IMG/VR virus record: IMGVR_UViG_3300033463_000010 | Location: 64,001-128,000 of that record | Direction: 5' to 3' (one strand) | Length of the DNA stretch: 64,000 nucleotides | DNA from: a virus | Taxonomy: Duplodnaviria > Caudoviricetes | In this document: piece by piece, positions 1 to 29,592 of the stretch | Numbering within the stretch: position 1 is the first letter of the stretch | How the letters are laid out: every line of letters begins with the position of its first letter | Notes under the pieces: generated by a model | The model's input: only the letters and a program-made list of their open reading frames with translations | What the model was told of the DNA's origin: nothing | The model's database searches: none | Position numbers and translations under genes: made by a program

Positions 1-12
1 CTGTTGAGTGAA

Positions 13-43
13 GACACCCCTGCGTAAAGCGGGGGTGTTTTTT
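13..43 (+). terminator. Intrinsic terminator
   Basis: gacacccctgc-gtaaa-gcgggggtgtt hairpin followed by a T run. Confidence 0.7.
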
Positions 44-71
44 ATAGGGTGGTTGTCCGAAGTTGAAAAAA

Positions 72-84
72 TTTTATTATTTTT
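72..84 (+). promoter_or_regulatory. Candidate late promoter motif TTTATTATTTTT
   Basis: Same motif at 7621-7632 (+) and ~53990-54003 (-), each upstream of putative virion genes. Confidence 0.4.
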
Positions 85-110
85 ATTGACGATAAACTTC
101 AAATGGGGTA

Positions 111-248
111 ATGCTTATGGCAGAAGAAACCACCGCACCCGATTCTTATTCTTACCTGGCTTACATTTTGGCTATGTATGCCGACGAAGAACAGCGTGAC
201 GAAACCCTGTGGACGGGAAACTTCACAGGCGACGTGTTGCCGTATTAG
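111..248 (+). CDS. Small acidic hypothetical protein (45 aa)
   Basis: ATG at 111 to TAG at 246-248 read manually (MLMAEETTAPDSY...), GGGG upstream; below the ORF-track cutoff. Confidence 0.4.
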   Translation: MLMAEETTAPDSYSYLAYILAMYADEEQRDETLWTGNFTGDVLPY

Positions 249-281
249 CGTCTAACAATTTTCCAAACAAGGGACACCCGT

Positions 282-1289
282 ATGTCTAACAAGCATTTCA
301 AGATAGTTGTTAAAGAAGCAAAGAAGAATGAAAGTAAGTCCGACGGTGAACGTGCCGTGGACGACTATGATACCCTTATTGACGGTCTAAAAGAATTGGG
401 ATTTGAGCCGTCGTCCAATGTTCGTAACGGTAAGATTTATCCGTATAGAACAAGGTTCACTGCGACCAAAGACGGCATTAAGTATGGCTTTACTCTTAAT
501 GAAGACCTCACAGGCGAATATCTTGAATCCATTGAAGTCGTTGGTGGAAGCATTTACACGGGCGACCCAAATGACAAGGACGCTAGGGTGTTTAAGTCCG
601 TCGGTGAAGTCCTTGACGCTTTGAAGCAGGTTGACGGTAAGAAGTCCGAGGCTATGGATATGTCTAGGGCGAAGCAGATTGTAATGGGTGACACTCGCCA
701 CAACCCTAAAACGGTTGCTGAGGAAATTGCGTGGTCTGCGTGGGTTGAAAGCGACGGGCACCCTAAAGCATTATTGCGTAAGGCTGCTAGGGATTACTAT
801 AATAGCGGGCTATTGGCTTCTGCTGAAAGGGCACGTTATTTGTTGGACACCTATACAGACGAAATGCGTGAACTTTATAAGGAATTTACGTCGTCGGTTG
901 AACCTGCTGAAGTTGCGTCCACAGGTGAAGTTATCCCGTGGAGTTCTTTTGAAGATATGTCTTCTAAAAATGAAGCTGACGCAGAAGCCTTTATTCAGTG
1001 GATTACTGAAAATGTTGCACGTAAGTTGGTTCGCTATGCTAGTGAGTCAATGAAGTCCGAAAGCCTTTCGCTCAAACAGAAAGAACTTAAAGATATGGCA
1101 CGTTATGGCGAAGCCGAAGACATTACTACCATATCCGACGCAGAAGCAAAGGAACTTCGCAAGAAGGGCGTTGAAACGGTGGGTGTTAGCCGTGGGACCT
1201 ACGGAATGAACGGTGCCTTGCTCCGTGACAAGGACGGCAATAAATACGTGATTACCGCCCGCAGCTCTAACCTGTTCTACTTTGTATAA
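282..1289 (+). CDS. Multi-module putative internal head protein (polyprotein-like)
   Basis: Leader MSNKHFKIVVKE; KKNE, KKSE, KNE and KSE linkers separate about 3 modules; C-terminal module ...SRGTYGMNGALLRD..YVITARSSNLF resembles a small stand-alone phage protein family. Confidence 0.6.
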   Translation: MSNKHFKIVVKEAKKNESKSDGERAVDDYDTLIDGLKELGFEPSSNVRNGKIYPYRTRFTATKDGIKYGFTLNEDLTGEYLESIEVVGGSIYTGDPNDKDARVFKSVGEVLDALKQVDGKKSEAMDMSRAKQIVMGDTRHNPKTVAEEIAWSAWVESDGHPKALLRKAARDYYNSGLLASAERARYLLDTYTDEMRELYKEFTSSVEPAEVASTGEVIPWSSFEDMSSKNEADAEAFIQWITENVARKLVRYASESMKSESLSLKQKELKDMARYGEAEDITTISDAEAKELRKKGVETVGVSRGTYGMNGALLRDKDGNKYVITARSSNLFYFV

Positions 1290-1315
1290 AATTTTTTAAA
1301 TAAAGGAAAACTCTT

Positions 1316-2650
1316 ATGAATAAAACATTCACCTGCTCTATGCAGAAAAAGAAAGAAAGCTTTGCGAAGAAGTCCGAAGCAAAGACTTGCGAAGCCACGT
1401 TTAAGCAGGGCGTGGACGACTTTATCAGTTGTGCCCCGTCGGGTGGTTGGTCCGACTATTGGGCTATGCAGCAGGATTGGGAAGCGTTTAAGGACGGTCT
1501 TTGCCGTGACGGTGTGATTACACAGAAGCAGGCAGATTCTTGGAGTAACCCTTGTACCCCCGAAACTTTTGCTCGCTGGCAGAAGCGTAACGGCTTGGTT
1601 AGCCGTGGTTACGAATCCAAGAAGTCCGAAGACACCTATGACCGTCCTGTGACCTTGTATGCTTCTACTCGTTATGATGACGCAGAAGAAGCACAGAAGT
1701 TCCTTGATAGCATTAGCGGTGGTGAAGTAAAGGTGTCCAAGGAACGCAATGGTGATACCTTGTCTGTGAGCATTGAAGGTGACGATGATGCTATTGACAC
1801 ATTCCTTGCAGTCTATAAGGATAACTATGATACCCTTGAAAAAGATTGCGATGCAGATGTTAATGGTTGGACGGACCCCGTGGATTTGAAGTATTATACG
1901 GTACAGGGTCGTAAGGAACTCACAGGTGAATCCGAAAGCAAGCAGAACGAAAAGAGTAAGGCTGTCTGTGCTGTTTGTGGGGAACCTACAGATGACCCTG
2001 TTTTTGACTATGACCATACTTTCTGTAAGGATTGTTACGGTGACGGTGGGGACGTTTGGAAGGGTGATAAGGCGAATGCTAATGCTAAATTTGTTGTTGG
2101 GACAATGATTAGTCTTGACGGTGTTAAGCAATATATTCGGGAATTTAGACCTCGTACTTTCGTAGCTCAAAACGTAGACACAGGTAAGGAAGTTACTTTG
2201 CCCCGCTCTAGTCTTAATCGTGCTTTCGCTTTATATGACCCTAGAAAGTCGGATTACGACGACAGGGGTAATTTAAAAAACCGTGAATCAAATAAAAAAG
2301 GCGAATCCAAGAAGTCCGAAGGCATTGGCGACCGAATCAAGATGGGCATAGACTACAATATGTTTATGCGTATGTGTGGTTCCGCAGCCTACCTTGATGA
2401 CAATGAAGACTATTGGGATGCACTGTGGGAATACTACTCCGAAATGGGCGAAATTGAAGACGCTTGCGAGTTCTTTGACAACTTGTTCCAATACACCGCT
2501 TGGTGCGATGCAGACGAGGTGTACGATGAATACTTGGACGATAAGTTCAAGGACGAGTCCAAGAGCAAGGAAGAATGTATTGAGGCTGCTGTTGACGCAG
2601 GCGACCTTGACGTTTTCAAGACGGACAAGGGCTATCTTGTAATTCAGTAA
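1316..2650 (+). CDS. Multi-module acidic putative internal head protein
   Basis: CSMQKKKESFAKKSE leader; ESKKSE twice and ESKQNE linkers; CxxC..CxxC module; very acidic C-terminal module. Confidence 0.6.
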   Translation: MNKTFTCSMQKKKESFAKKSEAKTCEATFKQGVDDFISCAPSGGWSDYWAMQQDWEAFKDGLCRDGVITQKQADSWSNPCTPETFARWQKRNGLVSRGYESKKSEDTYDRPVTLYASTRYDDAEEAQKFLDSISGGEVKVSKERNGDTLSVSIEGDDDAIDTFLAVYKDNYDTLEKDCDADVNGWTDPVDLKYYTVQGRKELTGESESKQNEKSKAVCAVCGEPTDDPVFDYDHTFCKDCYGDGGDVWKGDKANANAKFVVGTMISLDGVKQYIREFRPRTFVAQNVDTGKEVTLPRSSLNRAFALYDPRKSDYDDRGNLKNRESNKKGESKKSEGIGDRIKMGIDYNMFMRMCGSAAYLDDNEDYWDALWEYYSEMGEIEDACEFFDNLFQYTAWCDADEVYDEYLDDKFKDESKSKEECIEAAVDAGDLDVFKTDKGYLVIQ

Positions 2651-2667
2651 CAACCCGTGAAATGCAG

Positions 2668-2694
2668 AAGCACCCCTTAATTGGGGTGCTTTTT
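2668..2694 (+). terminator. Intrinsic terminator
   Basis: aagcacccc-ttaatt-ggggtgctt followed by a T run. Confidence 0.8.
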
Positions 2695-2710
2695 ACCTTA
2701 TTGATGTTTT

Positions 2711-2860
2711 TTAAATGCTTGAACCCGACATTGAACTATCCTCACACTAAAGATGTGTAGGATTCCCTAACTTACAGCAACATTCGTCGCTGATGGTTTC
2801 GGGCATTCTCGGTTTTGAAGCCGAGCATTGTTTAAGACTTCGGCAGGTCCCCCGCCTAGT
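2711..2860 (-). ncRNA. Putative omegaRNA/reRNA with guide tgtcgggttcaagcatttaa (2730-2711)
   Basis: TnpB reRNAs overlap the ORF 3' end and right end; the guide follows the terminal TCAA; 5' boundary estimated. Confidence 0.6.
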
Positions 2861-4030
2861 GTCTTCTTAACTCCAAGATACAGAATGTTCCGTGCAGCGT
2901 TTACGTCCCTGTCGTGTTCGGCATTACATACAGGGCATACCCACCGCTTCACGCCTAGCACGACTTCGGGGTTTACGTTCCCGCACACATTACAAGTCTT
3001 GCTTGTATATTGTGCGGGGACTTTGACCAGGTTCGTCTTGTAGGACAGGTATTGCCGAAGCAACCCGAACCCCTGGTCACTGACAACTTTCCCGTGTTCT
3101 TCTTCGGATGACATCTTCTGTAAATTTATGTCTTCCACGAACACGTATTGGTATCTGTCAGCCAGGTCACGGCTTACCTTGTGCAGCCAATCCCTGCGTT
3201 GGTTGACTACCTTTTCGTGCAGCCGTGCAACTTTGGACTTGGCACGGTAATACCTCTTGGACTGCACGTCCTTGCCCTTTACGAACCTGCGGGATTGGAC
3301 CTGTTGGTATTTCTCCAACTGCCGTTCTTTCCTTGTCAAGAAGCGAGGGCACTTGACTTTCGTGCCGTCGCTCAAAGTGAGGAACGAATCGTCGGAGCAG
3401 TTCCAATCTATCCCGACCGCCTTTCCGTTCTGTATTTTAGTTTGTTCTTCTTTAAGTTCTACGCAAATCTTGACATACCATTTCCCGCTTGCAGACCGCT
3501 TGAACGTTATGTTCTTCCACTTGCCCTTGCAGAACTGCGATGATGCGTGGATAGGTATGTAGCCTAATTTTCGTGTGACGTATAAACCTTTTTTTGAAAG
3601 ATACGCTGAATTATTCTGTATGTGATACCGAAACGATACTTTTTCGTTTCGTTTACATTTATATGTCGGTTGGTGTGAAAATGTAGAAGGTTTGTTGCTT
3701 TTTAATGATTTGTAGAAATTAGAATACGCCCCACGTATATCCATCCAAGTTTGTGTTAGTGGTATGGTATCTATTTCTTTAACCCATTCAAGTGCTTCGG
3801 GTTTAAATTTTGTAAATGTCGGTTTGTAACCCTCTATAAGAATTTTGTGATTTTCGTTTTTATTTTTAACAATAATGTTGTAGTATAATCGGCATAGACC
3901 TAGTGTCTTGTTAAAAATAGACACTTGTTCTTTAGTAGGATAGATTCTATATTCGTATGCCTTAAACATAAATTTGATAGTATAGTATGTTCAGCTATAA
4001 ATATACAATCAAAATTTAAAAACGTCAAGG
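2731..4030 (-). mobile_element. IS200/IS605-family (IS1341-like, tnpB-only) element; left end approximate
   Basis: tnpB ORF; right-end hairpin GAATCCTACACATCTTTAGTGTGAGGATAGTTCAA ending at 2731; TTGACG-17-TATATT promoter at ~4027-4000; no tnpA in the window. Confidence 0.75.
2767..3969 (-). CDS. tnpB: RNA-guided endonuclease TnpB (IS605 OrfB type)
   Basis: N-terminal AYEYRIYPTKEQ HTH; RuvC-I GIDWN, RuvC-II VEDIN, CNVCG..CPVC zinc finger, RuvC-III HDRDVNAARNI. Confidence 0.93.
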   Translation of the reverse strand: MFKAYEYRIYPTKEQVSIFNKTLGLCRLYYNIIVKNKNENHKILIEGYKPTFTKFKPEALEWVKEIDTIPLTQTWMDIRGAYSNFYKSLKSNKPSTFSHQPTYKCKRNEKVSFRYHIQNNSAYLSKKGLYVTRKLGYIPIHASSQFCKGKWKNITFKRSASGKWYVKICVELKEEQTKIQNGKAVGIDWNCSDDSFLTLSDGTKVKCPRFLTRKERQLEKYQQVQSRRFVKGKDVQSKRYYRAKSKVARLHEKVVNQRRDWLHKVSRDLADRYQYVFVEDINLQKMSSEEEHGKVVSDQGFGLLRQYLSYKTNLVKVPAQYTSKTCNVCGNVNPEVVLGVKRWVCPVCNAEHDRDVNAARNILYLGVKKTLGGGPAEVLNNARLQNRECPKPSATNVAVS

Positions 4031-4127
4031 GTTTTATGGGTATGCTGTAATATATGGCTATTCTATACGGTATAAAGCTGTCAAAGCGTATTAAATTTAT
4101 TATATTGGTTGTAACTATGGTGGTTAT

Positions 4128-4847
4128 ATGCTGAAACCTGGTAATCAAAAAGTTTATTTCATAGAGAACGACGACTTGTCTAAACTCTATCCCGACGCAG
4201 AAGACGCACAGGACAAAGCCCTGGGCGTTCTTGAAGGCGAGCAGTCCTTTATTATCGTGGACGGTGAACAGCTCCCCATAGGCTACGATAGCGAAAAGGA
4301 TGCTATCCTGGTGGAAGACAGCAGCACTTCCGATAGCGTGATTAAAAAGGCTCGCAAGCTGCTTGACCTGTTCGTGAAGAATGAACTGTTCGGGACCCGT
4401 GAAATTGAAAATGAAAACGGGTTTATGCCCGACGACGATTACCCTATGTCCGTGAATGTCACGGACGGTAATTCGTATCGCACGGTTTCTTATTACCCGT
4501 CTATGCAGCAAATGGCGAATGCACAGGTCCATTTGTGGACGGGAAGCGGGTATAGCACCCACGTATTCTATGTGAACGTCCACAATGGCGACCGCAACCC
4601 CGAAGAAGCCCTGGAAACGGCTGTGGTCCTTGCCGAAAAGATTGACAAGTCCGTATTGTTAGACGTTGCCGAAACCGAACAGGCTATGGCAGACGACGGT
4701 CATTACGACAAGGATAGCGGTGAGGGCGACGCTGTTTTTGAAGAAACATACATTTACGTTGACGCTACAATGTTGGGGGCTTCGCAGCCTTACTACGTGT
4801 ATGCAGAAAATTTCGGAGTGCTGCCCAATAAGGGCGAACTCGCATAA
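4128..4847 (+). CDS. Acidic hypothetical phage protein (two modules)
   Basis: ORF track, phage-like codon usage; internal KNE. Confidence 0.7.
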   Translation: MLKPGNQKVYFIENDDLSKLYPDAEDAQDKALGVLEGEQSFIIVDGEQLPIGYDSEKDAILVEDSSTSDSVIKKARKLLDLFVKNELFGTREIENENGFMPDDDYPMSVNVTDGNSYRTVSYYPSMQQMANAQVHLWTGSGYSTHVFYVNVHNGDRNPEEALETAVVLAEKIDKSVLLDVAETEQAMADDGHYDKDSGEGDAVFEETYIYVDATMLGASQPYYVYAENFGVLPNKGELA

Positions 4848-4861
4848 AAGAGAGGTAGGCT

Positions 4862-5677
4862 ATGTCTAAAATGAAAATCAAGGTCCACGAAAGAAATTCC
4901 GATAATGACCCGCAGCGTTTCTACGATAAATTGAACCCTGCTGAAAAGCGTCGTTTTGACGGGCTTGCCGACACGGTTGAAGCCCTGGTTGGTGTGTTTG
5001 ACGAAAACGGAAAATTGTCTAAACCGCAGCAAGACCAACTCAAGGAAGCCAGGGACACGATTTACGTGTTTGGCTATGCAGCCAGGGGCTATGTAAGTCT
5101 TGCCGACGAAGTTCTTGCCAACTATGGCGTGGAACCTTTGCTTGACCCGAACGAACCTGTCTTTGGCGAATCCAAAAAGAACGAAGACACCGACGACGCA
5201 GCCGAAGCACTCGCAAAGGAACTAGGGGTTTCTGTTGACAAGGTTTCGGATAGCTCCCAGGACTATGACTATTATGAACTCGATTACACGTATGACGTTG
5301 AATTGACGGACGGCACGACTGCTACTTACCTTGTGTATGATAATCAGCAGTCTGCTATTGACGCTGCTGCGGACGATTTGGGTGAACGTTTCCACGACGA
5401 CAGTAGCATACTTGGGGCAGCTATTGAATACTTCGGCTTCGGGACGCTTTCCGATTATTTGAACGGATATGACGACGAAATGGCTGACCTTGAAAGTCTT
5501 TGTGACGACGTGAGTTCCGAAGAATTTGCACGTATGTTGCAGCAGCGGGGCGGTTTGGATTACCGTGGGTTTGCTGAATACAACATAGGTGAACTTGGGG
5601 CTGCTTGGCACCTTTCCAATTATGACGGCAAAGAAGTTGAACTTGAAAACGGTATGCTCGCATATCGTGTAGATTAA
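4862..5677 (+). CDS. Putative internal head protein with acidic YDGKE-type C-terminal module
   Basis: GAGG RBS; leader MSKMKIKVHE; ESKKNE linker; C-terminus LSNYDGKEVELENGMLAYRVD is paralogous to 53049..53957. Confidence 0.65.
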   Translation: MSKMKIKVHERNSDNDPQRFYDKLNPAEKRRFDGLADTVEALVGVFDENGKLSKPQQDQLKEARDTIYVFGYAARGYVSLADEVLANYGVEPLLDPNEPVFGESKKNEDTDDAAEALAKELGVSVDKVSDSSQDYDYYELDYTYDVELTDGTTATYLVYDNQQSAIDAAADDLGERFHDDSSILGAAIEYFGFGTLSDYLNGYDDEMADLESLCDDVSSEEFARMLQQRGGLDYRGFAEYNIGELGAAWHLSNYDGKEVELENGMLAYRVD

Positions 5678-5689
5678 GGGAGTAAGTAT

Positions 5690-7195
5690 ATGTCTTTGAA
5701 AATCAAAACACATAAGTTTGAAAGCCGTGTAGCTCCCGCTGCACAGCGTCGTCCGTTTGGTCGTATGGCTGAATCCAAAAAGTCCGAAGCTACAAGTTTC
5801 GGTGCGGGAATGTCTAAACGCACGGACCTGTCCAAAATGCGTAATTTGGGTGAAGTCATAGACGTTCTTGAAGAACACAAAAAACTTATGGAAAATAAGG
5901 CAAAGGATTTGTCGCAAAGCAAGGAAGACTTGCAGGCTGCGATTAAGTCCCTTAACGAATTTTCCAAACACGTCCTGTTCTTGAAGCAGCAGTCCGTAAA
6001 GGGTATCAAGGACGCACTCACGTTCAACAAGTCCCCCGAAGTCAAGGCTGCTGCCGATATTGAAAAGCACTTGAAGAATGCTCTTAAAATCCTTTACTCC
6101 GATTATGAGAACATTCCCGACGTTACTCAACTGCTGACAGTTGTTGACAGTCGGTATGCTACCCGTGGTGACAAGGTTGTGACCGCCTGGGTTGACAATG
6201 CGACCCGTGCTATTGAAGTGGACGCAAAGACGATTAAGGACAGCATCGCTGCGGGCGATATGTCCGAAGACGACGTTGTGAAACTTGTGACGGTTACTTA
6301 TGCTACCCACGGTGTCAAGAACAAGGACACCGTTGAAAAGGTAACGCCTGTCCTTGAACGTATGAACGCCTTGCTTGCTTCGGCTCCGAAGATTGAAGAA
6401 GCGGTCATTGACCCGAAGGAATTTAAGGAACTCCGTGACCTTGTGGAACAGATTGTTAAGGAAGCGTCCGAACCGACGCTTACTGTCAAGACTGCTATCA
6501 CTACGCTTTCAAAGGGCGAACTCGCAACCGTCCCGTCCGAAGCGTTTGTGTCCGAGGGTCTGCTTGACAAACTCAAAGACCTTGTGGCTTCTCTCAAGGA
6601 CAAGATTTCGTCCCTGTGGAACTCGTTTACTTCCCTGTTCTTCAACCTGGAAGACGAAGCCCTTGAATCGGCTGAAACGTTTGCCGAAGTTGAAGAAGGC
6701 TTTGCCATTATGGGCATTGTCGTTGAATCCTACGTTGCAAAGAGTGTTCCGCTCGGCAAGCAGTTTGAAGTCCTTACGAAGTCCGTGCTTCACTGCTGCG
6801 ATAAACTTGTCAAGGACGCTTCCCTTGCGGGCGAATTTGACGACGAAGTGATTTACGCAGAAGAAGCCGTCAATAATGCCGTTGAGTCGTTCCAGGCTCT
6901 CGGTGAAGCCTGCAAGACTTTGAAGAACGCATTGTCGTATCACAAAAACGAAGACAATATGAACGTTATCGGTATTCTTGCGGACGCTATCACGCAGATT
7001 GTGAACGACGACAATGGCAGTGCCGATACGGAAGGTGGCGACGACTCCGAAGACGACGAAAATTCTGTAATCCGTGACGTTGAAAAGGAATATAGCCCCG
7101 CAGGTGGCGAGGGCGGTGAAGAAGGTCCCGAAGCGAACGGTGGCGAGAACGAAGCCCCGAACCCCGCTGAAATGGGCGAACCCGAAACGTTCTAG
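5690..7195 (+). CDS. Coiled-coil putative head/prohead-core protein
   Basis: GGGAG RBS; leader MSLKIKTHKFE; ESKKSE; helical A/E/K/L composition; acidic G/E tail. Confidence 0.55.
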   Translation: MSLKIKTHKFESRVAPAAQRRPFGRMAESKKSEATSFGAGMSKRTDLSKMRNLGEVIDVLEEHKKLMENKAKDLSQSKEDLQAAIKSLNEFSKHVLFLKQQSVKGIKDALTFNKSPEVKAAADIEKHLKNALKILYSDYENIPDVTQLLTVVDSRYATRGDKVVTAWVDNATRAIEVDAKTIKDSIAAGDMSEDDVVKLVTVTYATHGVKNKDTVEKVTPVLERMNALLASAPKIEEAVIDPKEFKELRDLVEQIVKEASEPTLTVKTAITTLSKGELATVPSEAFVSEGLLDKLKDLVASLKDKISSLWNSFTSLFFNLEDEALESAETFAEVEEGFAIMGIVVESYVAKSVPLGKQFEVLTKSVLHCCDKLVKDASLAGEFDDEVIYAEEAVNNAVESFQALGEACKTLKNALSYHKNEDNMNVIGILADAITQIVNDDNGSADTEGGDDSEDDENSVIRDVEKEYSPAGGEGGEEGPEANGGENEAPNPAEMGEPETF

Positions 7196-7221
7196 TCAAC
7201 GCCTGGTCCGCTGAAAAGTAT

Positions 7222-7256
7222 AGTTGCCGAGGAATACTCGGCAACTTTCATTTTTG
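7222..7256 (+). terminator. Intrinsic terminator
   Basis: agttgccgag-gaata-ctcggcaact followed by a T-rich tail. Confidence 0.65.
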
Positions 7257-7312
7257 ACGCTGCGTGACTATATTTCATATAGGACAACCACGGCATACAA
7301 AAAGGAAACTGT

Positions 7313-7477
7313 ATGACGCTAGACGAAAAAGTAAAAGAACTGTATGACACGCTGAAGCCGATATGCAAGGAAAAGAAATTGAACCTTGCGTGGGAAGTCC
7401 ATAAGGCGTTGAAGAAATTCCGCAGCGAACACCCCGACCTTGACGAACAGTGGTCCATTGAAGCCTTGAAGTGCTGA
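7313..7477 (+). CDS. Small hypothetical protein (54 aa, MTLDEKVKELYDTLK...)
   Basis: AAGGA RBS; ORF read manually; CTATATTT motif upstream. Confidence 0.6.
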   Translation: MTLDEKVKELYDTLKPICKEKKLNLAWEVHKALKKFRSEHPDLDEQWSIEALKC

Positions 7478-7498
7478 CCGTTTTTGACAGGCACTTTG

Positions 7499-7557
7499 TA
7501 GGTATTCTGTTATATTCATTAGGTAATTTGTTAGATTATTAGGTAATTTGTTATATT
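7499..7557 (+). repeat. Three tandem copies of the promoter-proximal motif TAGGTAWTYTGTTAKATT
   Basis: Copies at 7499, 7520 and 7540 (20-21 bp period). Confidence 0.8.
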
Positions 7558-7669
7558 TATTTTGTATAAAATAAATCTTTCCCCATTAACTGAAATTCTG
7601 CGGTAATGCTCCGCAGAATTTTTATTATTTTTAGAATGTTGCAACAATAAAATTAGGAGTATTCCTCAA

Positions 7670-8833
7670 ATGAATTTTACCGAAAATGCAAAGACTAAAT
7701 TTTGGGCTGACCTTTCCGCAGGTGTAAAGTCCACGTTTGGACATTCTCTCGGTGAAGCGTTCCACATTGACCAATACAAAAGTGGTCGCTTCTCGTTTAC
7801 CGAATCCGTGACGGGCGGTCCTGGTGCTGTCACACGGCTTATGGACTCTTTAAAGGCTTCCTCGCCTGTCATTGAGTCGGTTCGTATGACACCGATTTCC
7901 AACGGCTACAACGCTACATACAACGTGTCGGTTGAATTTAACCCCGTCAAGGCTGAATCCGTTTACAGCGACGGCAAGGACAACGTTAAGACCTTTGAAA
8001 AGGACGGCAAGACCTACGTCGTCGGTAGCGACGGAAACGCTATTCCTGTTGACGACCCCGACAAGTTTATGGATAATGTAAACAAGACCACGGGTTCTAG
8101 TTACAAGAAAAAGTCCGAAGACGCAGACCAGGTGGATATGGACGGGTTCCCGATTGAACTTGACTCCGTTATCGCTCTCGCAAACGAAGCCCTTGACGGC
8201 ACGGGCGTTACTATCGCTAACGAAGGCGGTAAGCTGCTTGTCCGTGGTGCGTCCGAACTTGTGAAGCCGACCCAGGAATTTGTCCCCGAACCGTATTACG
8301 GTGCCGACTCTATTGACGGTGGCTACGACGAAGAAACGGGCGACCTGGCTCTTACCATTCCCGAATATCCGACGGAATACGAAATTGAACAGCTCCGTTC
8401 GTTCCTTATTTCTGCGGTCAACTGCATTATGGACCACGCCCTGTGCAAGACTGCCGATTGCTCCGACGACGATTGGTGCAACGCTATGGCAGAAGCAGAA
8501 CCGTGCGAAAGCTACGTTCACAAGTATGGCTACCTGGGCGAAGCATTTGTCGGTAATGACAAGAAACAGGTTGCTATCCTGGTGAAGTCGCTATTGCAGG
8601 AAAACCGCCTGGAAGACGCAAAGAAAGTCGCCACGAAGCATATGGGTGCTGAAATGGCAGAAGGCTTCACCCGCAAGTATGCACCCGAAAAGGTGGAAGA
8701 AAAACATCAAGCGGTCATTACAGACGAAATGGCTCTGCTTGACAGAATGCACGAATCCGCTATGAACCGTGCCCCCGAAAAGGTGGTGGAAATGGATTCC
8801 CTCGTCGCCAAAAATTTAACACAGGAGAAGTAA
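7670..8833 (+). CDS. Putative head/scaffold-associated virion protein
   Basis: AGGAG RBS; acidic; KKKSE linker; directly upstream of the sheath gene. Confidence 0.5.
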   Translation: MNFTENAKTKFWADLSAGVKSTFGHSLGEAFHIDQYKSGRFSFTESVTGGPGAVTRLMDSLKASSPVIESVRMTPISNGYNATYNVSVEFNPVKAESVYSDGKDNVKTFEKDGKTYVVGSDGNAIPVDDPDKFMDNVNKTTGSSYKKKSEDADQVDMDGFPIELDSVIALANEALDGTGVTIANEGGKLLVRGASELVKPTQEFVPEPYYGADSIDGGYDEETGDLALTIPEYPTEYEIEQLRSFLISAVNCIMDHALCKTADCSDDDWCNAMAEAEPCESYVHKYGYLGEAFVGNDKKQVAILVKSLLQENRLEDAKKVATKHMGAEMAEGFTRKYAPEKVEEKHQAVITDEMALLDRMHESAMNRAPEKVVEMDSLVAKNLTQEK

Positions 8834-8836
8834 ACT

Positions 8837-11125
8837 ATGCCGATAAATGATAGTGCAGGTGTAGGTGTTTACCTTATTGACAAGTCGCAGCGTTCTTCTG
8901 TCGCTATCGGTTTCCGTTCTGCGGGTGCCATTGAAGCAGACAGGGGACTTTGTAACACGCCAACCTTGATTTCTAGCGAAGACGACTACGTTAAGGCGTT
9001 TGGCACTCCGTCTATGGAGCGTCACGGTCTTGCTGCTATGGAAGCATATTTGCTTGCACAGCGTAAGGTCCCGCAGGTTCTCGTCCGTGCAAAGGACCCG
9101 ACAATGCTCCCGTCGGACACTCCGTTCGGGGCTATGAAGTTTACCGTGGAAGACGGCAAGTTGGTCGTGAACACGATGCTTCCCGCTATTGCGATTGCTT
9201 CCCCTGGTGAAGACAATGAAGCTATGCTCTATTTCAAGGGCGAAGGCGACTACTGTTCCAAAGAACGCAAGAACGTTGTCGTGCGTTTGAGCCAACCTGT
9301 CACGCAGTCTGCTTACGCAAAGGAAGGTCGTTCCGTCCGTGTGCAGTTGTTTGACTTCAACGGTTCCAACCATATTGACGAAGACGTTCCCGCAGAACTC
9401 GCATTCAACCCCGACGTTGCTAACTTGATTTCCGCTACGGGCGATTTCAAGTTGGACGGCTTCCTGGTTGGTTCCGCTGCGGGCAGCGACGCAGGTGCTT
9501 CGGGCGAACACCCCGTAAAGATTACCGCTTTCGTGAACGGTCGTGTTTATAATCTGCCCGACTTTGACTACTCGTCTTTGTTTGACGGCTCCGATTGGGG
9601 TATGTTTGATAAGTTCGCCCAGGCTGCGAAGGGTGCTACCTACGCAGACGGCAAGCCTGTCATTAAGCCGTCCAAAGAAGAAGCCCAGGGTTCCGACGAC
9701 TATTGGGACCTTTCCCTGCTTTACAGCCCTGGTGAAAACGGTGACGGTTCGGGTTCCGACGCTAACGAAAAGTATGGCGTGTATTACCTGTATTCGGGTA
9801 AGGACGGTGGACCGCAGGAACTCAACTGCTTTGGTCTTTCCATTTCGCTTACGGCTACCGTGGAACTCCCGATTGCCGAAGACCCGACTTCTACCCGTAA
9901 ACTCGCCCCTGGCTTCTACGGCTATCCGTGCGGTAGCGTGACGGTTGCGAAGAAGGGTGACGGTTACGTTGCGAAGTTCAACATTAGCACGAACCTTTAC
10001 CTCAAGAACCGCAGCACCTATATGTTTATGGGTGAACAGAATGAGTATTGGGCTTCCTACTACAAGACCTACTGCGTGAATGACTTCGTGGTGTCTATGT
10101 CTTACGACGACTTTGATTCCAACTACGTGTCTATGCAGATGGACGCTGTAATGGGCGGTTCCAAATACCTTGTTCCGAAGTCTAGCGAAATCTTTGGTGA
10201 CTATACCATTGATTACGAACACGACGACATTACGAACAAGCTGCACTACTTTGAGGGTATGATTAAGGCTAACACCATTCCTATGCAGAACAAGTCCTAC
10301 GCTTACTCGCAGGCACTTCAAGTTTTGCTTGGGGACAACCTTACCCGTTGGCGTTGCTTGGCTACTCCGAACTTGGGTGACGTTATGAACCCTGCGGATT
10401 ACATTTCCGCTATCACGGCTTCTAATGAAGCAACTCTCGGCTTGTCTAACATTGGTCGTGCTGCTGCTACGGACGTGTTCGGAAATCTTACGGGTCGCCA
10501 CGGCAACCGCTTTATTGCCGACTACTGTCAGTATGCTTACCGCACTCTTGCGGGAAAGCGGACCGCAGTCACTATGGCTTGCCTTGTCGCAGACTTGCTC
10601 AATAGCCATTACAACGAAGGTATTGAAGCACGTCCCCCGTTTGGCTACAACTATGGTCAAATTGCCTGCTTGTCCTTGTCGCAGCAGTTTAGCGGTCCCG
10701 AACGCAATATGCTTGCAAGACAGCTCAAGATTAACCCTGTTGTTGAAGACGGTGGTTACTACATTTGGGAAGAACGCACGTCGCAGCTTACCGACACGTC
10801 CTTGTCCGACGTTCATTGTATCATATCGTTTCTGTGGATGAAGTTCGCTATCTATGACGCTATGAAGTCTTTCGTGGCTGAATACAACGACCAATCTACT
10901 GTGAACCGTGGTCTTGCAGTTCTCGGTCAGTTGAACCAAAACTTCATTGACAAGAACTACATTGAAGAAGGCATTGTAAGTGCCGACAAGAACGTTATCG
11001 GTGACGAAGTGCTTCGCTTTGACTACGCAATCCGCTTCAAGGGCGTTGCCCGTTTCGTGGACGTTTATATCACCGCATACAGTCAAACGCAGACTTTGGC
11101 TGTGTCGCTCGCACAGGAGGCTTAA
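8837..11125 (+). CDS. Contractile tail sheath protein (T4 gp18-like)
   Basis: N-terminal GVGVYLID..PTLISSEDDYVKAFGTP; C-terminal ERNML..KINPVV..GYYIWEERT..LSDVH pattern typical of sheaths; followed by a tube-sized gene. Confidence 0.88.
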   Translation: MPINDSAGVGVYLIDKSQRSSVAIGFRSAGAIEADRGLCNTPTLISSEDDYVKAFGTPSMERHGLAAMEAYLLAQRKVPQVLVRAKDPTMLPSDTPFGAMKFTVEDGKLVVNTMLPAIAIASPGEDNEAMLYFKGEGDYCSKERKNVVVRLSQPVTQSAYAKEGRSVRVQLFDFNGSNHIDEDVPAELAFNPDVANLISATGDFKLDGFLVGSAAGSDAGASGEHPVKITAFVNGRVYNLPDFDYSSLFDGSDWGMFDKFAQAAKGATYADGKPVIKPSKEEAQGSDDYWDLSLLYSPGENGDGSGSDANEKYGVYYLYSGKDGGPQELNCFGLSISLTATVELPIAEDPTSTRKLAPGFYGYPCGSVTVAKKGDGYVAKFNISTNLYLKNRSTYMFMGEQNEYWASYYKTYCVNDFVVSMSYDDFDSNYVSMQMDAVMGGSKYLVPKSSEIFGDYTIDYEHDDITNKLHYFEGMIKANTIPMQNKSYAYSQALQVLLGDNLTRWRCLATPNLGDVMNPADYISAITASNEATLGLSNIGRAAATDVFGNLTGRHGNRFIADYCQYAYRTLAGKRTAVTMACLVADLLNSHYNEGIEARPPFGYNYGQIACLSLSQQFSGPERNMLARQLKINPVVEDGGYYIWEERTSQLTDTSLSDVHCIISFLWMKFAIYDAMKSFVAEYNDQSTVNRGLAVLGQLNQNFIDKNYIEEGIVSADKNVIGDEVLRFDYAIRFKGVARFVDVYITAYSQTQTLAVSLAQEA

Positions 11126-11815: not shown

Positions 11816-13111
11816 ATGAAGACGTTGAAACTAGCCATAACGAATAACCCCGACCTGTCGGATGTTATAAGAGTGTATAGCAGTATGTTCCGTATGGCTT
11901 ACAATCGTCTTCAAGAGGGTTGTTCCGAGAATACTACGTGGCACAAAATTAAAGAAATTTTCGGTGTAAACTGTTGGCTTGCCTCGTCTGCTGCAAAGGA
12001 AGCACACGGGGTAGTTACGCTTAACAAGGGTAAGAAAGTCTTGTTTGGGGGTAAGTGGAACTTAAAGCAATACCTTAAAGGCTTGATTACCAAAGAGCAG
12101 TTTAAGCATAAGCGGTTGGTGCCCTTATGCAGTATAGGGGAAAAACAATATGCAGGGAACCGCCTGTTTGACTTTGACTTTAATAATCGGACTGTTGTGT
12201 TCAAGCCTGGTAACGGTGTCCGTAAGGAAATACAGTTCTGCCCCGTTAAGAAGAAACTAGCACAAGAGTTAGCCAAAGTTCAAGAGTTAGCCGAACAGAA
12301 GAAAATGCCCGTGACCGTGAAGTTCACGGACAAGCATTTATACCTTACTTACGACGAATCCTTGATTTATAACGAAGCATACAAGAACTTAAAGCACAAC
12401 CGTGTTTTGGGAATAGATATGAACCCCAATTATGTCGGGGTTTCCGTTATTGAGTTTGATAAGAACGACGAATTTAAAATACTGCACAAGGTAGTGTTTG
12501 ACCTAACCGCACTTACGAAGCCTAGCGGTAAGGCAAGCACGGATAAGAAATCCAAATACTTTACGAACAAGCTGAAGCACGAAACTATCGCTATTGCTCA
12601 CAAGATTAACAAGTTGGTGGACTATTGGAAGTGTAGTAAACTAGCCATTGAAGACCTGTCTATAAAACCGAAAGACCAAAATAAGGGCAGGACGTTTAAT
12701 CGCTTGTGTAATAACAGGTGGGAACGTCAACTGTTCGTGAACAAGCTGAAAATGTTGGCTAATATCCACAGGTATGAGCTAGTTGAAGTCAATCCTGCCT
12801 ATTCTTCAATCGTGGGCAACTTTGCATACGGTAGTCCCGATACTCCCGATATGGTTGCGTCCTCTATTGAAATAGCACGTAGGGCTTACAAGAAATTTGA
12901 GAAGGGATGGTTCTATCCCGGGTTTAACGTTGAACGAACAGACGAGCAATGGAAGCAAACGCTGTCGGGAGTGAAAACCTGGAAAGAACTGTTCCGAAAA
13001 GTCAAAGAAACGGGACTCAAATACCGTTTCCTGCTATCCGACTATGTTGGAAATGTAGTCTTGAGTATCTTCTATAGTAAACAGAAGTGGAAATTACTAC
13101 TTTTTAATTAA
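11816..13111 (+). CDS. tnpB: TnpB/Cas12f-like RuvC nuclease lacking a zinc finger (copy A)
   Basis: RVLGIDMNP (D), LAIEDL (E), VNPAYSSIVG, PDMVASS (D); AT-richer than neighbours; inserted in the tail operon. Confidence 0.85.
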   Translation: MKTLKLAITNNPDLSDVIRVYSSMFRMAYNRLQEGCSENTTWHKIKEIFGVNCWLASSAAKEAHGVVTLNKGKKVLFGGKWNLKQYLKGLITKEQFKHKRLVPLCSIGEKQYAGNRLFDFDFNNRTVVFKPGNGVRKEIQFCPVKKKLAQELAKVQELAEQKKMPVTVKFTDKHLYLTYDESLIYNEAYKNLKHNRVLGIDMNPNYVGVSVIEFDKNDEFKILHKVVFDLTALTKPSGKASTDKKSKYFTNKLKHETIAIAHKINKLVDYWKCSKLAIEDLSIKPKDQNKGRTFNRLCNNRWERQLFVNKLKMLANIHRYELVEVNPAYSSIVGNFAYGSPDTPDMVASSIEIARRAYKKFEKGWFYPGFNVERTDEQWKQTLSGVKTWKELFRKVKETGLKYRFLLSDYVGNVVLSIFYSKQKWKLLLFN

Positions 13112-18977: not shown

Positions 18978-19718
18978 ATGTCTTTGAAGATACGACTTCA
19001 CGAATCAAGCGTGACCCGCATTATGTCACACTTGAAGAACTACGACTGCGGGACCATTACTGCGTTCCGTGGAACCTGTGCAAACGCTACGGACAACACC
19101 CTGGATTCCGTCAAGGAATACGAGGGTAAGTCTATCCCGCTTTCTGTAAAGAAGCAGTGGAACCGTGACTTGAAAGCAGCCCTGCTCAAGTTGGGCTACG
19201 GTGTGACCGCTATCAAGGGTCGCTACCGTGAAGACGGTTGGGACACCGCTTCGGACGAAGAATCGTTCTTTGTCGTGAACCTTACCGACGACCCCGACTT
19301 TATCAAGAATATGGCTCGCCTGGGCGAAGCCTACAACCAGGACAGTATCTTGATTAAGGAAAAGGGCAGTGACAACGCCTACCTGTTGGGAACCAACACT
19401 AGCGAGGGTGACTTTGACCCCGCCCTGGGCGAAACGCAGGACATTGGTAAGCTGCACGTAAATATCCCGTTGGACTACCTGGGTGCTTCGTCCGTTATCG
19501 GTAACAAGGCATTCATTTTCAAGGGTGACGACGAAAGCAAGAACGAAGCCAACGGCAATCCGTTTTCGCTTGACACGTTCTTTGCTTACGGCAATTACAG
19601 CAAGAGCGGTATTGCCCAACGTGCGAAGCCCGTGTTGGAAGCCCTGGGTCTGCCGACAAGTCGTCCGATAGCTGCATACAAGCAGGCGTTGGAAAATGCG
19701 GTTTCTTTTAATAAGTAA
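18978..19718 (+). CDS. Conserved myovirus protein with MSLKIRLHE leader (putative internal head protein)
   Basis: AGGAG RBS; ESSVTRI..DCGTITAFR..GYGVT..G.Y.E..EESFFV..YNQDSIL motif recalled from T4-like phage hypothetical proteins. Confidence 0.65.
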   Translation: MSLKIRLHESSVTRIMSHLKNYDCGTITAFRGTCANATDNTLDSVKEYEGKSIPLSVKKQWNRDLKAALLKLGYGVTAIKGRYREDGWDTASDEESFFVVNLTDDPDFIKNMARLGEAYNQDSILIKEKGSDNAYLLGTNTSEGDFDPALGETQDIGKLHVNIPLDYLGASSVIGNKAFIFKGDDESKNEANGNPFSLDTFFAYGNYSKSGIAQRAKPVLEALGLPTSRPIAAYKQALENAVSFNK

Positions 19719-29457: not shown

Positions 29458-29592
29458 ATGCAGAAGTGTTCTATGCAGAAGAAGATTGAAAGCCTTCGCA
29501 AGAAAAGCGAAACGGTTGATGACGAAGGGCTGACCTTTTCGTATGATGGCGTGAACGTTATGGTCCACGAAGGTCATTACACCCGTAAGTAG
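29458..29592 (+). CDS. 44-aa protein MQKCSMQKKIESLRKKSETVDD... (leader-dominated mini cargo)
   Basis: Read manually; GGAG RBS; AATAATCTATATT at 29419; leader shared with 1316..2650. Confidence 0.65.
   Translation: MQKCSMQKKIESLRKKSETVDDEGLTFSYDGVNVMVHEGHYTRK

What the first reader, a model, noticed from the sequence alone, without database searches (positions are those of the whole stretch)
282..8833. Candidate protease-processed cargo polyproteins: unrelated acidic modules joined by E-S-K-K-(S/N)-E linkers
Seen: the linkers recur between modules in ORFs 282 (KKNE, KKSE, KNE, KSE), 1316 (KKSE, ESKKSE twice, ESKQNE), 4862 (ESKKNE), 5690 (ESKKSE, KNE), 7670 (KKKSE), 18978 (ESKNE) and 29458 (KKSE). 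The DNA gaatccaa(g/a)aagtccgaag recurs at ~1613, 2303 and 5771. The linker is not seen in the tail or early ORFs. Established: T4 gp21 and phiKZ gp175 prohead proteases cut after Glu in short motifs, and T4 IPI* is a packaged, injected restriction inhibitor. Inference: these ORFs are concatenated small proteins packaged in the head, cut at K-(S/N)-E and injected with the DNA. Several modules are very acidic and resemble stand-alone early phage proteins. This would be a modular delivery system for anti-defence or host-takeover factors, with the linker DNA also acting as a shuffling junction.
Basis: partly seen in the sequence, partly recalled or inferred. Interest (0 to 1): 0.85.

Follow-up and report, generated by a model that had tools for sequence, protein, structure and literature searches.

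The report
Phage head-cargo polyproteins with ESKKSE joints
A 213-kb uncultured phage strings small unrelated protein modules into long proteins joined by a near-invariant Glu-Ser-Lys-Lys-Ser-Glu peptide that its T4-type head protease probably cuts, so the pieces are probably loaded into the capsid and released there; this has not been measured.

Summary
ESK(K/Q)(S/N/T)E occurs 12-13 times in this phage's proteome against about 0.2 expected. All copies lie in late, plus-strand genes, and 8 lie within 10 kb of the major capsid gene.

The window starts 12 bases after a gp23-like capsid gene. A gp21-type (Peptidase S77) head protease lies 6 kb upstream. Its catalytic His and Ser align with T4 gp21, and it carries the motif at the end of its catalytic domain.

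Four of the six ORFs in 282-8833 start with a short leader ending in Glu, a pattern shared by about 20 otherwise unrelated proteins and resembling the T4 capsid-targeting sequence.

In 15 related contigs and 180 database homologues, modules are gained, lost, moved or stand alone. Protein and DNA homology break exactly at the linkers. A fold model puts the linkers in disordered gaps between separate domains.

The most likely reading is a T4 internal-protein system extended into multi-cargo polyproteins. Cleavage, packaging and injection are untested. Module functions are unknown, apart from a leader-tagged SAM lyase elsewhere in the window.

ORF 4128 and ORF 7670 probably do not belong to the system.

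I found no published description. The scan has noted analogous polyproteins in this genome and in at least eight other uncultured phages, most of them T4-like.

The parts
282..1289 (+). Cargo polyprotein 1 (335 aa). It has a leader (aa 1-12, ...KIVVKE), then AKKNE, then four modules: aa 18-123, 124-231, 232-260 and 261-335. The last 75-aa module is conserved.
   Evidence: Module 18-123 recurs inside 651-aa and 1030-aa polyproteins of relatives. Module 261-335 is the C-terminal module (79-95% identity) of the first ORF after the capsid gene in all relatives, where that ORF is 335-1265 aa long.
639..650 (+). Linker KKSE (ORF 282 aa 120-123)
   Evidence: DNA homology to L016 ends inside it.
1050..1061 (+). 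Linker MKSE (ORF 282 aa 257-260). The same position reads ESKKSE, EAKKSE or CKKSE in relatives.
   Evidence: Six of the seven related loci begin DNA homology within 10 nt of it. Sequences.
1316..2650 (+). Cargo polyprotein 2 (444 aa). It has a type-b leader (aa 1-21, ...CSMQKKKESFAKKSE) and four modules: aa 22-105, 106-212, 213-335 (zinc-ribbon-like CxxC pairs) and 336-444.
   Evidence: AlphaFold2 gives pLDDT below 50 at aa 1-24, 93-109, 203-215 and 304-342, with pTM 0.29.
1613..1630 (+). Linker ESKKSE (GAATCCAAGAAGTCCGAA)
   Evidence: L026 homology starts at 1613.
1934..1951 (+). Linker ESKQNE
   Evidence: Lies in a low-pLDDT gap at aa 203-215.
2303..2320 (+). Linker ESKKSE (identical 18-mer)
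   Evidence: Six of the seven related loci start DNA homology at 2302-2306 and the seventh at 2285.
2767..3969 (-). TnpB / IS605 OrfB-type gene inserted between cargo genes. It is not part of the system.
   Evidence: phrog_506 at 3.6e-84; Pfam OrfB_IS605, Cas12f1-like_TNB and HTH_OrfB_IS605.
4128..4847 (+). Conserved acidic 239-aa protein (pI 4.17) with no leader or linker. Its role is unknown and its membership is doubtful.
   Evidence: 52-65% identical in all relatives. The N-terminal 'KVYFIE' is not conserved.
4862..5677 (+). Cargo polyprotein 3 (271 aa). Leader MSKMKIKVHE, module aa 11-108, ESKKNE, then an acidic module aa 109-271 (pI 4.05).
   Evidence: The first module occurs internally (aa 337-434) in a 669-aa polyprotein of L026.
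5168..5185 (+). Linker ESKKNE
   Evidence: L026 DNA homology ends at 5174.
5690..7195 (+). Leader-tagged large protein (501 aa). Leader MSLKIKTHKFES, a 21-aa spacer, ESKKSE, then a conserved 468-aa helical acidic body.
   Evidence: Relatives keep the leader and body but carry none or about 55-135 extra residues between them in the closer relatives (far more in L019). In all but the most distant relative, which lacks the segment, the body is preceded by ...SE.
5771..5788 (+). Linker ESKKSE (GAATCCAAAAAGTCCGAA)
   Evidence: In L014 a 328-nt module sits between two copies of this linker.
7670..8833 (+). 387-aa conserved protein just upstream of the tail sheath gene. It has no leader and its KKKSE is not conserved, so it is probably not part of the system.
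8837..11125 (+). Tail sheath gene. It marks the downstream boundary of the head-cargo block.
   Evidence: phrog_23 at 3.4e-16.
18978..19718 (+). Leader-tagged S-adenosylmethionine lyase (leader MSLKIRLHES) with ESKNE at aa 186-190 before a 56-aa tail.
   Evidence: Pfam PF23780, 46.8 bits against a cut-off of 28.
29458..29592 (+). 44-aa ORF made of a type-b leader (…CSMQKKIESLRKKSE) plus 22 residues.

Best explanation
ORFs 282, 1316, 4862 and 5690 are capsid-cargo polyproteins of a T4-type head-assembly system. So are at least seven further genes of this phage and many in its relatives.

Proposed mechanism:
1. A short N-terminal leader (…K-I-x-V-H-E or …C-S-M-Q-K-K-K-E-S) takes the whole chain into the prohead core, as the T4 capsid-targeting sequence does. 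In some relatives a conserved C-terminal module may do this instead.
2. The gp21-family serine protease then cuts after Glu at the leader and at each E-S-K-(K/Q)-(S/N)-E joint.
3. This releases separately folded modules, mostly about 75-240 aa, which stay in the head and leave with the DNA.

One leader therefore loads several cargos in equal amounts. Because every joint is encoded by nearly the same 18 bases, modules are exchanged between genes and phages at the joints.

Shown here: the motif statistics, the protease and its aligned catalytic residues, the shared leaders, the breakpoints at the joints, and the predicted domain gaps.

Inferred: the cutting, the packaging, the injection, and any anti-defence role.
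For: 1. Motif enrichment and restriction to late head-proximal genes. The same holds in two independent related genomes: 11 and 10 forward DNA hits, with 0 reverse and 0 control hits.

2. The protease. It matches phrog_207 'head maturation protease' at 3.6e-22 and Pfam Peptidase_S77 over profile positions 21-197 of 198, though below that family's cut-off. tblastn hits gp21 of RB16, RB43 and Lw1. BLASTP against T4 gp21 gives 31% identity over 149 aa (E 6e-7), with H86 aligned to T4 H85 and the VSSR serine (S140) aligned to T4 S140. Its ...I-S-E-S-K-Q-N-E aligns with T4's ...I-T-E-S-Q-T-A-E at the end of the domain. gp21, phiKZ gp175 and SPN3US gp245 all cut after Glu and trim their own C-termini (PMC9026906, PMC10052503).

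3. The motif is conserved at that position in the protease of 9 relatives. The capsid protein has a conserved Y-E-(S/A/N)-(F/Y)-V-x-E-N at about residues 59-66.

4. Leaders. [KR][IL]x[IVLMT]HE occurs 10 times in the first 12 residues of proteins and never internally. CSMQKKxES occurs four times at N-termini and twice internally, each internal copy directly after a linker-like stretch. The leaders have the T4 form: hydrophobic P3, Glu at P1, Ser or Ala at P1'.

5. Equivalence of leader and linker. The same module follows a leader directly in one phage and a preceding module plus ESKKSE in another. The ORF 5690 family is leader, then 0 to several inserts, then ...SE, then a conserved body.

6. 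Breakpoints. BLASTP alignment ends for 119 homologues of ORF 1316 pile up at aa 21-30, 101-110, 201-220 and 311-330. About 20 of 27 internal DNA homology endpoints lie within 10 nt of a linker.

7. Sequence logo over 248 contexts: P6 is E in 73%, P5 is S in 69%, P4 is K, P3 is K in 96%, P2 is S in 84% or N in 16%, P1 is E. P1' is G, A or S in 77%.

8. The AlphaFold2 model of ORF 1316 has low-confidence gaps exactly at the linkers and no fixed arrangement of domains.

9. A SAM lyase, a known anti-restriction activity in phage T3, carries the same leader. T4 Ip1-3 are injected inhibitors of restriction enzymes that share only their leader (PMC12373910).
Against: - No proteomic or biochemical data exist for this uncultured phage.
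- The joint has Lys at P3, unlike T4 (L/I-x-E), phiKZ (S/A/G-x-E) or SPN3US (A-x-E). The protease would need either a second specificity or recognition of the whole hexapeptide, and it is unclear which of the two Glu is P1.
- In several relatives the first polyprotein after the capsid gene lacks the KIKVHE-type leader. Either the leader is not the only targeting signal, or those chains are not packaged.
- Most modules are acidic, whereas the T4 internal proteins are described as basic (PMC9026906).
- The logo and the module-size figures are inflated by homologous contexts.
- The fold model has only moderate confidence (mean pLDDT 61).
- No module has a demonstrable anti-defence fold. The Lar-like zinc-ribbon hits in homologues are below threshold.
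Confidence: 0.66

Rival explanations
1. The hexapeptide is an uncut, charged, flexible hinge in multi-domain virion or assembly proteins. On this reading the proteins act as whole chains, for example as core or scaffold-like fillers or decoration proteins.
For: The linkers are predicted to be disordered. No cleavage data exist. Lys at P3 does not fit any published gp21-family motif (PMC9026906, PMC10052503).
Against: Passive hinges are not normally held to one hexapeptide across hundreds of joints and many genomes. The same motif sits at the protease's own domain end and directly after the N-terminal leaders. The same modules also occur as stand-alone leader-tagged ORFs. One relative's ORF stops one residue after a linker.
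Confidence: 0.14
2. The polyproteins are sacrificial prohead-core or scaffold components. The protease cuts them so that they can be cleared before DNA packaging, as with T4 gp22, gp67 and gp68. They would then be neither retained nor injected as cargo.
For: They are acidic like T4 core proteins. They lie beside the scaffold and capsid genes. T4 core proteins are cut into several fragments (PMC9026906).
Against: The modules are folded domains, mostly about 75-240 aa, which seem too large to leave through shell pores (an inference). Scaffolds are conserved, whereas these chains are hypervariable and shuffled in the way conflict genes are. An enzyme, the SAM lyase, carries the same leader.
Confidence: 0.1
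3. The conserved unit is mainly a DNA-level element: a recombination or cassette-insertion site, or a remnant of one. The peptide would then be a tolerated by-product with no role in proteolysis.
For: The 18-mer is more uniform than the peptide requires. The Ser codon TCC fills 15 of 21 linker Ser positions against 34% elsewhere in the same genes (p = 5e-4). In genome G002, 7 of 10 sites are the identical 18-mer. An inserted module in L014 is flanked by two copies.
Against: The sites always lie in one reading frame and on one strand, and they vary at synonymous positions (AAA/AAG, TCC/AGC, GAA/GAG) while keeping the peptide. Variants such as ESKQNE, EAKKSE and ESKKPE keep the Glu...Glu frame. 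The motif also occurs in the protease, where nothing is shuffled. DNA exchange at the joints is compatible with the main explanation and is part of it.
Confidence: 0.06

Closest known systems
Phage T4 internal proteins IPI, IPII, IPIII and Alt, with the capsid targeting sequence (CTS) and gp21 processing (PMC9026906, PMC12373910; Repoila et al. 1994, as cited there)
   Same: Both have a gp21-family protease and a gp23-like capsid protein. In both, a short N-terminal leader ending in Glu with a hydrophobic P3 is shared by otherwise unrelated, non-conserved proteins encoded among the head genes. The expected outcome is also the same: small proteins kept in the head and injected. In T4 these inhibit restriction enzymes.
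   Different: T4 internal proteins are one cargo per gene, and those described are basic. Here up to about 10 modules hang on one chain (335-1265 aa in this clade), joined by a fixed E-S-K-K-S-E peptide with Lys rather than Leu/Ile at P3, and most are acidic. None of the cargos shows sequence similarity to T4 IPs.
Polyvalent proteins of phages and conjugative elements (Iyer et al. 2017, PMC5512222)
   Same: Many unrelated domains sit in one polypeptide. The genes lie near head and packaging genes. Both are predicted to be packaged and delivered with the DNA, show extensive domain mosaicism, and are proposed to release their domains by proteolysis.
   Different: Polyvalent proteins are defined by recognisable effector domains (zincin-like MPTase, ART, ArdC, ParB, methylases) and usually an embedded peptidase. 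Here no such domain was detected in 7,666 aa of polyprotein, the protease acts in trans, and the joints are one stereotyped peptide.
Inner-body and ejection proteins of phiKZ, 201phi2-1 and SPN3US, processed by gp175 or gp245 (PMC10052503, PMC5694885)
   Same: These are jumbo phages with a diverged gp21 homologue that cuts many head proteins after Glu, sometimes at several sites per protein, and trims its own C-terminus.
   Different: In those phages the multiple cuts mostly destroy long N-terminal propeptides, leaving one mature fragment. Their motifs are (S/A/G)-x-E or A-x-E. No stereotyped joint and no module shuffling at joints have been reported.
Mobile regulatory cassettes (PeSLs) that mediate modular shuffling in T4-type genomes (PMC2839356, PMC4122927)
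   Same: Short conserved DNA motifs at module borders act as recombination junctions that swap accessory genes between related phages.
   Different: Those motifs are intergenic promoter-terminator elements that swap whole genes. Here the junction is an in-frame coding 18-mer that swaps protein modules inside genes.

Membership tests
T4-type internal-protein / CTS cargo system | The genome encodes a gp21-family (Peptidase S77) prohead serine protease with the catalytic His and Ser. | tested here: met
   phrog_207 at 3.6e-22. Pfam S77 at 21.9 bits, below the cut-off of 27 but covering nearly the whole profile. tblastn hits RB16/RB43 gp21. In BLASTP against T4 gp21 (E 6e-7), H86 aligns with H85 and S140 with S140.
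T4-type internal-protein / CTS cargo system | gp23-type major capsid protein with a cleavable N-terminal segment. | tested here: inconclusive
   Pfam Gp23 at 40.6 bits, above the cut-off of 24.4. A conserved E-S-(F/Y)-V-N-E sits at about residues 60-65. Cleavage itself was not testable.
T4-type internal-protein / CTS cargo system | A short N-terminal leader ending in Glu, shared by otherwise unrelated proteins encoded among the head genes. | tested here: met
   About 20 proteins carry it. [KR][IL]x[IVLMT]HE occurs 10 times at N-termini and never internally.
T4-type internal-protein / CTS cargo system | The protease removes the leader, and the mature protein is present in virions and injected. 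| not testable with these tools
   The phage is uncultured and there are no proteome data.
T4-type internal-protein / CTS cargo system | Sequence homology of the cargos to T4 IPI, IPII, IPIII or Alt. | tested here: not met
   The Pfam and PHROG scans of the ORFs (E ≤ 0.01) and the Pfam scan of single modules (E ≤ 1) returned no internal-protein or Alt family.
Polyvalent proteins (Iyer et al. 2017) | 2-15 unrelated domains in one polypeptide, encoded by a phage near its head or packaging genes. | tested here: met
   There are 2-4 modules per ORF here and up to about 10 in relatives. The genes lie next to the capsid gene.
Polyvalent proteins (Iyer et al. 2017) | Hallmark effector domains (MPTase, ART, ArdC, ParB, methylase and others) and, commonly, an embedded peptidase. 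| tested here: not met
   No Pfam family at E ≤ 1e-3 in ten polyproteins totalling 7,666 aa or in the window's ORFs. Elsewhere in the genome, one leader-tagged 506-aa protein has a sub-threshold ParB-like hit.
phiKZ / SPN3US inner-body and ejection proteins | Cleavage motif (S/A/G)-x-E or A-x-E, and homology to the inner-body protein families. | tested here: not met
   The joints have K or Q at P3 and the leaders have I, V, L or M at P3. No PHROG match to inner-body families.

The most novel reading that the evidence does not exclude
The ESKKSE joint is a dual-purpose element. As a peptide it is the head protease's cutting site. As a near-invariant in-frame 18-mer it is the recombination junction of a cassette system. 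That system lets a clade of jumbo phages plug any small protein into a capsid-loading chain, working as an integron-like exchange for injected anti-defence proteins. It would mark hundreds of uncharacterised modules as candidate counter-defence factors.
Probability: 0.3. Interest if true: 0.8.

Novelty: new variant of a known kind. Interest (0 to 1): 0.62.

Why it matters
- **Extension of the T4 paradigm.** If the joints are cut, the classic T4 scheme of one leader and one internal protein extends to one leader and many cargos. It would also explain how large phages diversify what they inject.
- **A way to find injected proteins.** The fixed joint gives a simple sequence rule for picking out probable injected proteins in metagenomes. 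There were 238 joints in 120 homologous proteins here, and almost all modules lack any known family. That makes them a focused pool of candidate anti-defence or host-takeover factors.
- **Engineering use.** The arrangement suggests a natural design for loading several proteins into phage heads, which is relevant to T4-CTS-based delivery work (PMC10229621).
- **Limits.** Everything beyond sequence and comparative evidence remains untested.

Tried and rejected
- **Whole ORFs.** Megablast of window 1-9000 against 50,697 phage records found nothing. Pfam and PHROG scans gave no family for ORFs 282, 4128, 4862, 5690 and 7670. The only hits were chance-level ones: RING-like zinc finger, PFU and Apo-CIII, all below cut-off.
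- **Single modules.** Pfam at E ≤ 1 gave nothing usable.
- **Relatives' polyproteins.** Pfam on ten of them gave no hits.
- **Lar-like hits.** Lar_restr_allev and PaaD zinc-ribbon hits in four homologues score 23-24.5 bits, below cut-offs of 27-28.6. I treat them as generic zinc ribbons, not as evidence of anti-restriction.
- **Protease against PDB sequences.** phmmer found no real hit.
- **Fold searches.** Foldseek of the ORF 1316 model against the PDB gave nothing at E ≤ 0.001, only generic ferredoxin-like folds for module 2.
- **ESM Atlas.** For ORF 1316 aa 336-444 the matches were weak (TM ≤ 0.45, winged-helix-like). For ORF 282 aa 261-335 the best matches were unnamed 72-76-aa proteins (TM 0.56-0.61). 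Neither gave a function.
- **Stand-alone copies of the conserved 75-aa C-terminal module.** Only 14 short proteins turned up, mostly on short contigs, so this is no evidence that it stands alone.
- **Capsid protein against T4 gp23.** Pairwise BLASTP was too diverged to map the T4 cleavage site by alignment.
- **Bare K-(S/N)-E as a site rule.** Rejected, because it is not enriched.
- **Protease-substrate complex prediction.** Not run: the tool's own guidance says enzyme-substrate pairs are rarely informative.

Full report
**Context**

The window is bases 64001-128000 of a 213,231-bp IMG/VR virus record rated 97% complete. I called 318 genes with a codon-usage model. Plus-strand genes run from about 207 kb across the record ends to about 104 kb, and these are the late and structural genes. 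Minus-strand genes fill the remainder.

The finding's span (window 282-8833) lies between the major capsid gene and the tail sheath gene.
- The capsid gene is at genome 62339-63988 and ends 12 bases before the window. It matches Pfam Gp23 at 40.6 bits, above the cut-off, and phrog_138.
- The tail sheath gene is at window 8837-11125 and matches phrog_23.
- About 6 kb upstream of the window lies a head maturation protease at genome 56961-58004. It matches phrog_207 at 3.6e-22 and Pfam Peptidase_S77 over nearly the whole profile, though below that family's cut-off.

**The observation**

Against shuffled proteins, ESK[KQ]?[SN]E occurs 12 times where 0.18 are expected, ESKK[SN]E occurs 7 times against 0.01, and KK[SN]E occurs 13 times against 2.9. 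Bare K[SN]E (48 against 34) is not enriched and cannot define sites alone.

All hits are in plus-strand genes: 13 against 0, with about 30,000 aa on each strand. Eight fall within 10 kb of the capsid gene. None falls in the sheath or other tail genes.

In two related genomes of about 215 kb, a degenerate DNA pattern for the joint hits 11 and 10 times forward, never in reverse and never in the control.

**The protease link**

The protease aligns with T4 gp21 at 31% identity over 149 residues (E 6e-7). His86 aligns with T4 His85, and the Ser of VSSR (Ser140) aligns with T4 Ser140. The assignment of those T4 residues as catalytic comes from my own knowledge.

The segment ...P-K-M-I-S-E-S-K-Q-N-E at the end of the catalytic domain aligns with T4's ...P-K-E-I-T-E-S-Q-T-A-E. 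tblastn also reaches gp21 of RB16, RB43 and Lw1.

gp21 cuts after Glu at L/I-x-E, and it is expected to be trimmed at its own C-terminus. phiKZ gp175 and SPN3US gp245 behave likewise with (S/A/G)-x-E and A-x-E (PMC9026906, PMC10052503).

The joint motif is conserved at this position in the protease of nine relatives. The capsid protein of all relatives has Y-E-(S/A/N)-(F/Y)-V-x-E-N at about residues 59-66. T4 gp23 loses a 65-residue propeptide (PMC9026906), so the residue numbers are similar. I could not map the T4 site by alignment.

**Leaders**

About 20 plus-strand proteins that are otherwise unrelated begin with one of two leader types:
- M-x-(K/L)-(M/L)-K-I-x-V-H-E-(S/A), as in ORFs 4862, 5690 (a variant), 282 (a variant) and 18978.
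- ...C-S-M-Q-K-K-K-E-S..., as in ORFs 1316 and 29458.

[KR][IL]x[IVLMT]HE occurs 10 times within the first 12 residues of proteins and never internally, although N-termini make up only 6% of all residues. The second leader type also occurs twice inside proteins, each time directly after a linker-like stretch, which marks fusions of leader-bearing modules.

The form matches the T4 capsid-targeting sequence: about 10 residues, hydrophobic P3, Glu at P1 and a small P1'. Many leaders run straight into S-K-K-x-E, so the joint looks like the tail end of a leader.

**Modules and shuffling**

Cutting at the joints gives these modules:

| ORF | Module sizes (aa) |
|---|---|
| 282 | 106, 108, 29, 75 |
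| 1316 | 84, 107, 123, 109 |
| 4862 | about 98, 163 |
| 5690 | a 468-aa body |

Four modules in the span have pI 4.05-4.4.

Fifteen related IMG/VR loci (capsid identity 66-91%) carry the same joints in the genes after the capsid gene. Their chains are 335 to 1265 aa long, with up to eight canonical joints plus looser variants.

The same module turns up in different settings:
- ORF 282's last module is the C-terminal module of the first post-capsid ORF in every relative.
- ORF 1316 module 2 sits in a gene upstream of the capsid gene in L026.
- ORF 1316 module 3 sits in the first post-capsid ORF of L013.
- ORF 4862's first module is internal in L026.
- A module of the neighbouring gene 59638 follows a leader directly in L013 and L015.

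A search of 5.8 billion proteins found 180 homologues of ORF 1316. Most share only one module (26-28% coverage at 80-90% identity), and they come from contigs of up to about 225 kb. BLASTP alignment ends pile up at the joints.

At DNA level, about 20 of 27 internal homology endpoints lie within 10 nt of a joint. In L014 a 328-nt module lies between two joint copies in the ORF 5690 homologue.

The ORF 5690 family is leader, then a variable number of inserts, then ...SE, then a conserved body.

The joints favour the Ser codon TCC, in 15 of 21 positions against 34% elsewhere in the same genes (p = 5e-4). They still vary at synonymous positions. This fits descent and exchange of the joint DNA under selection for the peptide.

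**Structure**

AlphaFold2 on ORF 1316 with 53 sequences gives a mean pLDDT of 61 and a pTM of 0.29. Confidence falls below 50 at aa 1-24, 93-109, 203-215 and 304-342, which are the leader and the three joints. The last module is modelled well, with pLDDT of about 68-93 per ten-residue block. The modules therefore look like separate domains on disordered tethers.

**Function**

Pfam, PHROGs, Foldseek against the PDB and the ESM Atlas gave no function for any module in the span. ORF 1316 aa 46-79 matches two PHROG families of 40-57-aa proteins of unknown function.

Elsewhere the same leader marks:
- an S-adenosylmethionine lyase in ORF 18978 (PF23780, above cut-off);
- a protein with an Lcl_C domain;
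- a 506-aa protein with a weak ParB-like nuclease hit and an ESKQSE joint.

T4 Ip1-3 are injected inhibitors of GmrSD restriction enzymes and share only their leader (PMC12373910). An anti-defence role here is a reasonable inference, but nothing shows it.

**What does not fit**

- The joint has Lys or Gln at P3, which is unlike any published gp21-family motif.
- It is unclear which Glu is cut.
- Several relatives' first post-capsid polyprotein lacks the canonical leader while keeping the conserved C-terminal 75-aa module. That module may be a second targeting signal, or an essential cargo.
- ORF 7670 has no leader and its KKKSE is not conserved. ORF 4128 has neither leader nor linker. I leave both out of the system.
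- A TnpB gene interrupts the block at 2767-3969.

**Comparison and novelty**

This system works like the T4 internal-protein/CTS system and resembles the 'polyvalent protein' idea (PMC5512222). It differs from both in three ways: several cargos per chain, one stereotyped joint, and a protease that acts in trans.

Full-text searches for the joint peptides and for protease-processed internal-protein polyproteins found no description. Earlier notes of this scan report the same reading for another gene of this genome and for analogous polyproteins in at least eight other uncultured phages, most of them described as T4-like. Those notes are unchecked AI notes and I did not use them as evidence.

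**Verdict**

It is a new variant of a known kind. My confidence in protease-processed capsid cargo is about 0.66.

Noticed in passing
window 2767-3969 (-); also genome 46851-48089 (+) and window 11816-13111 (+): TnpB / IS605 OrfB-type genes sit inside the late structural block. One lies between two cargo polyprotein genes on the opposite strand (phrog_506 at 3.6e-84). A second strong copy lies at genome 46851-48089 (1.1e-121). A weak TnpB-like hit lies just after the tail tube gene.
   Followed up: partly
window 1062-1286 (ORF 282 aa 261-335): This basic 75-aa module (pI 9) is the invariant C-terminal module (79-95% identity) of the first ORF after the capsid gene in every relative, whatever precedes it (335-1265 aa). 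Several of those chains lack the N-terminal leader. It may be a C-terminal capsid-targeting anchor or an essential cargo.
   Followed up: partly
genome 56961-58004 (6-7 kb upstream of the window), aa 181-191: The protease's ...ISESKQNE aligns with T4 gp21 ...ITESQTAE at the end of the catalytic domain. T4's own protease therefore carries an E-S-x-x-x-E segment containing an I-x-E consensus site at the equivalent place.
   Followed up: partly
L014:13903-15327: A relative's 474-aa polyprotein ends one residue after a joint (...ESKKSEA, then stop). It looks as if the chain had been truncated exactly at a cassette border. The next ORFs carry modules that are fused in other genomes.
   Followed up: no
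genome 17159-18373 (outside the window): A 404-aa ORF matches a reverse transcriptase family (phrog_1423 at 4.3e-35) in the late region of the phage.
   Followed up: no
genome 23403-23783 and 210915-212435 (outside the window): Other leader-tagged proteins carry recognisable domains. One has an Lcl C-terminal domain (PF07603, 41.9 bits, above cut-off). A 506-aa protein has a weak ParB-like nuclease hit and an ESKQSE joint at aa 135-140.
   Followed up: partly
window 19882-21177 (-): A 431-aa minus-strand ORF lies directly downstream of the leader-tagged SAM lyase gene, inside the plus-strand late block. I did not examine it. By its size and setting it could be another TnpB-type insertion.
   Followed up: no
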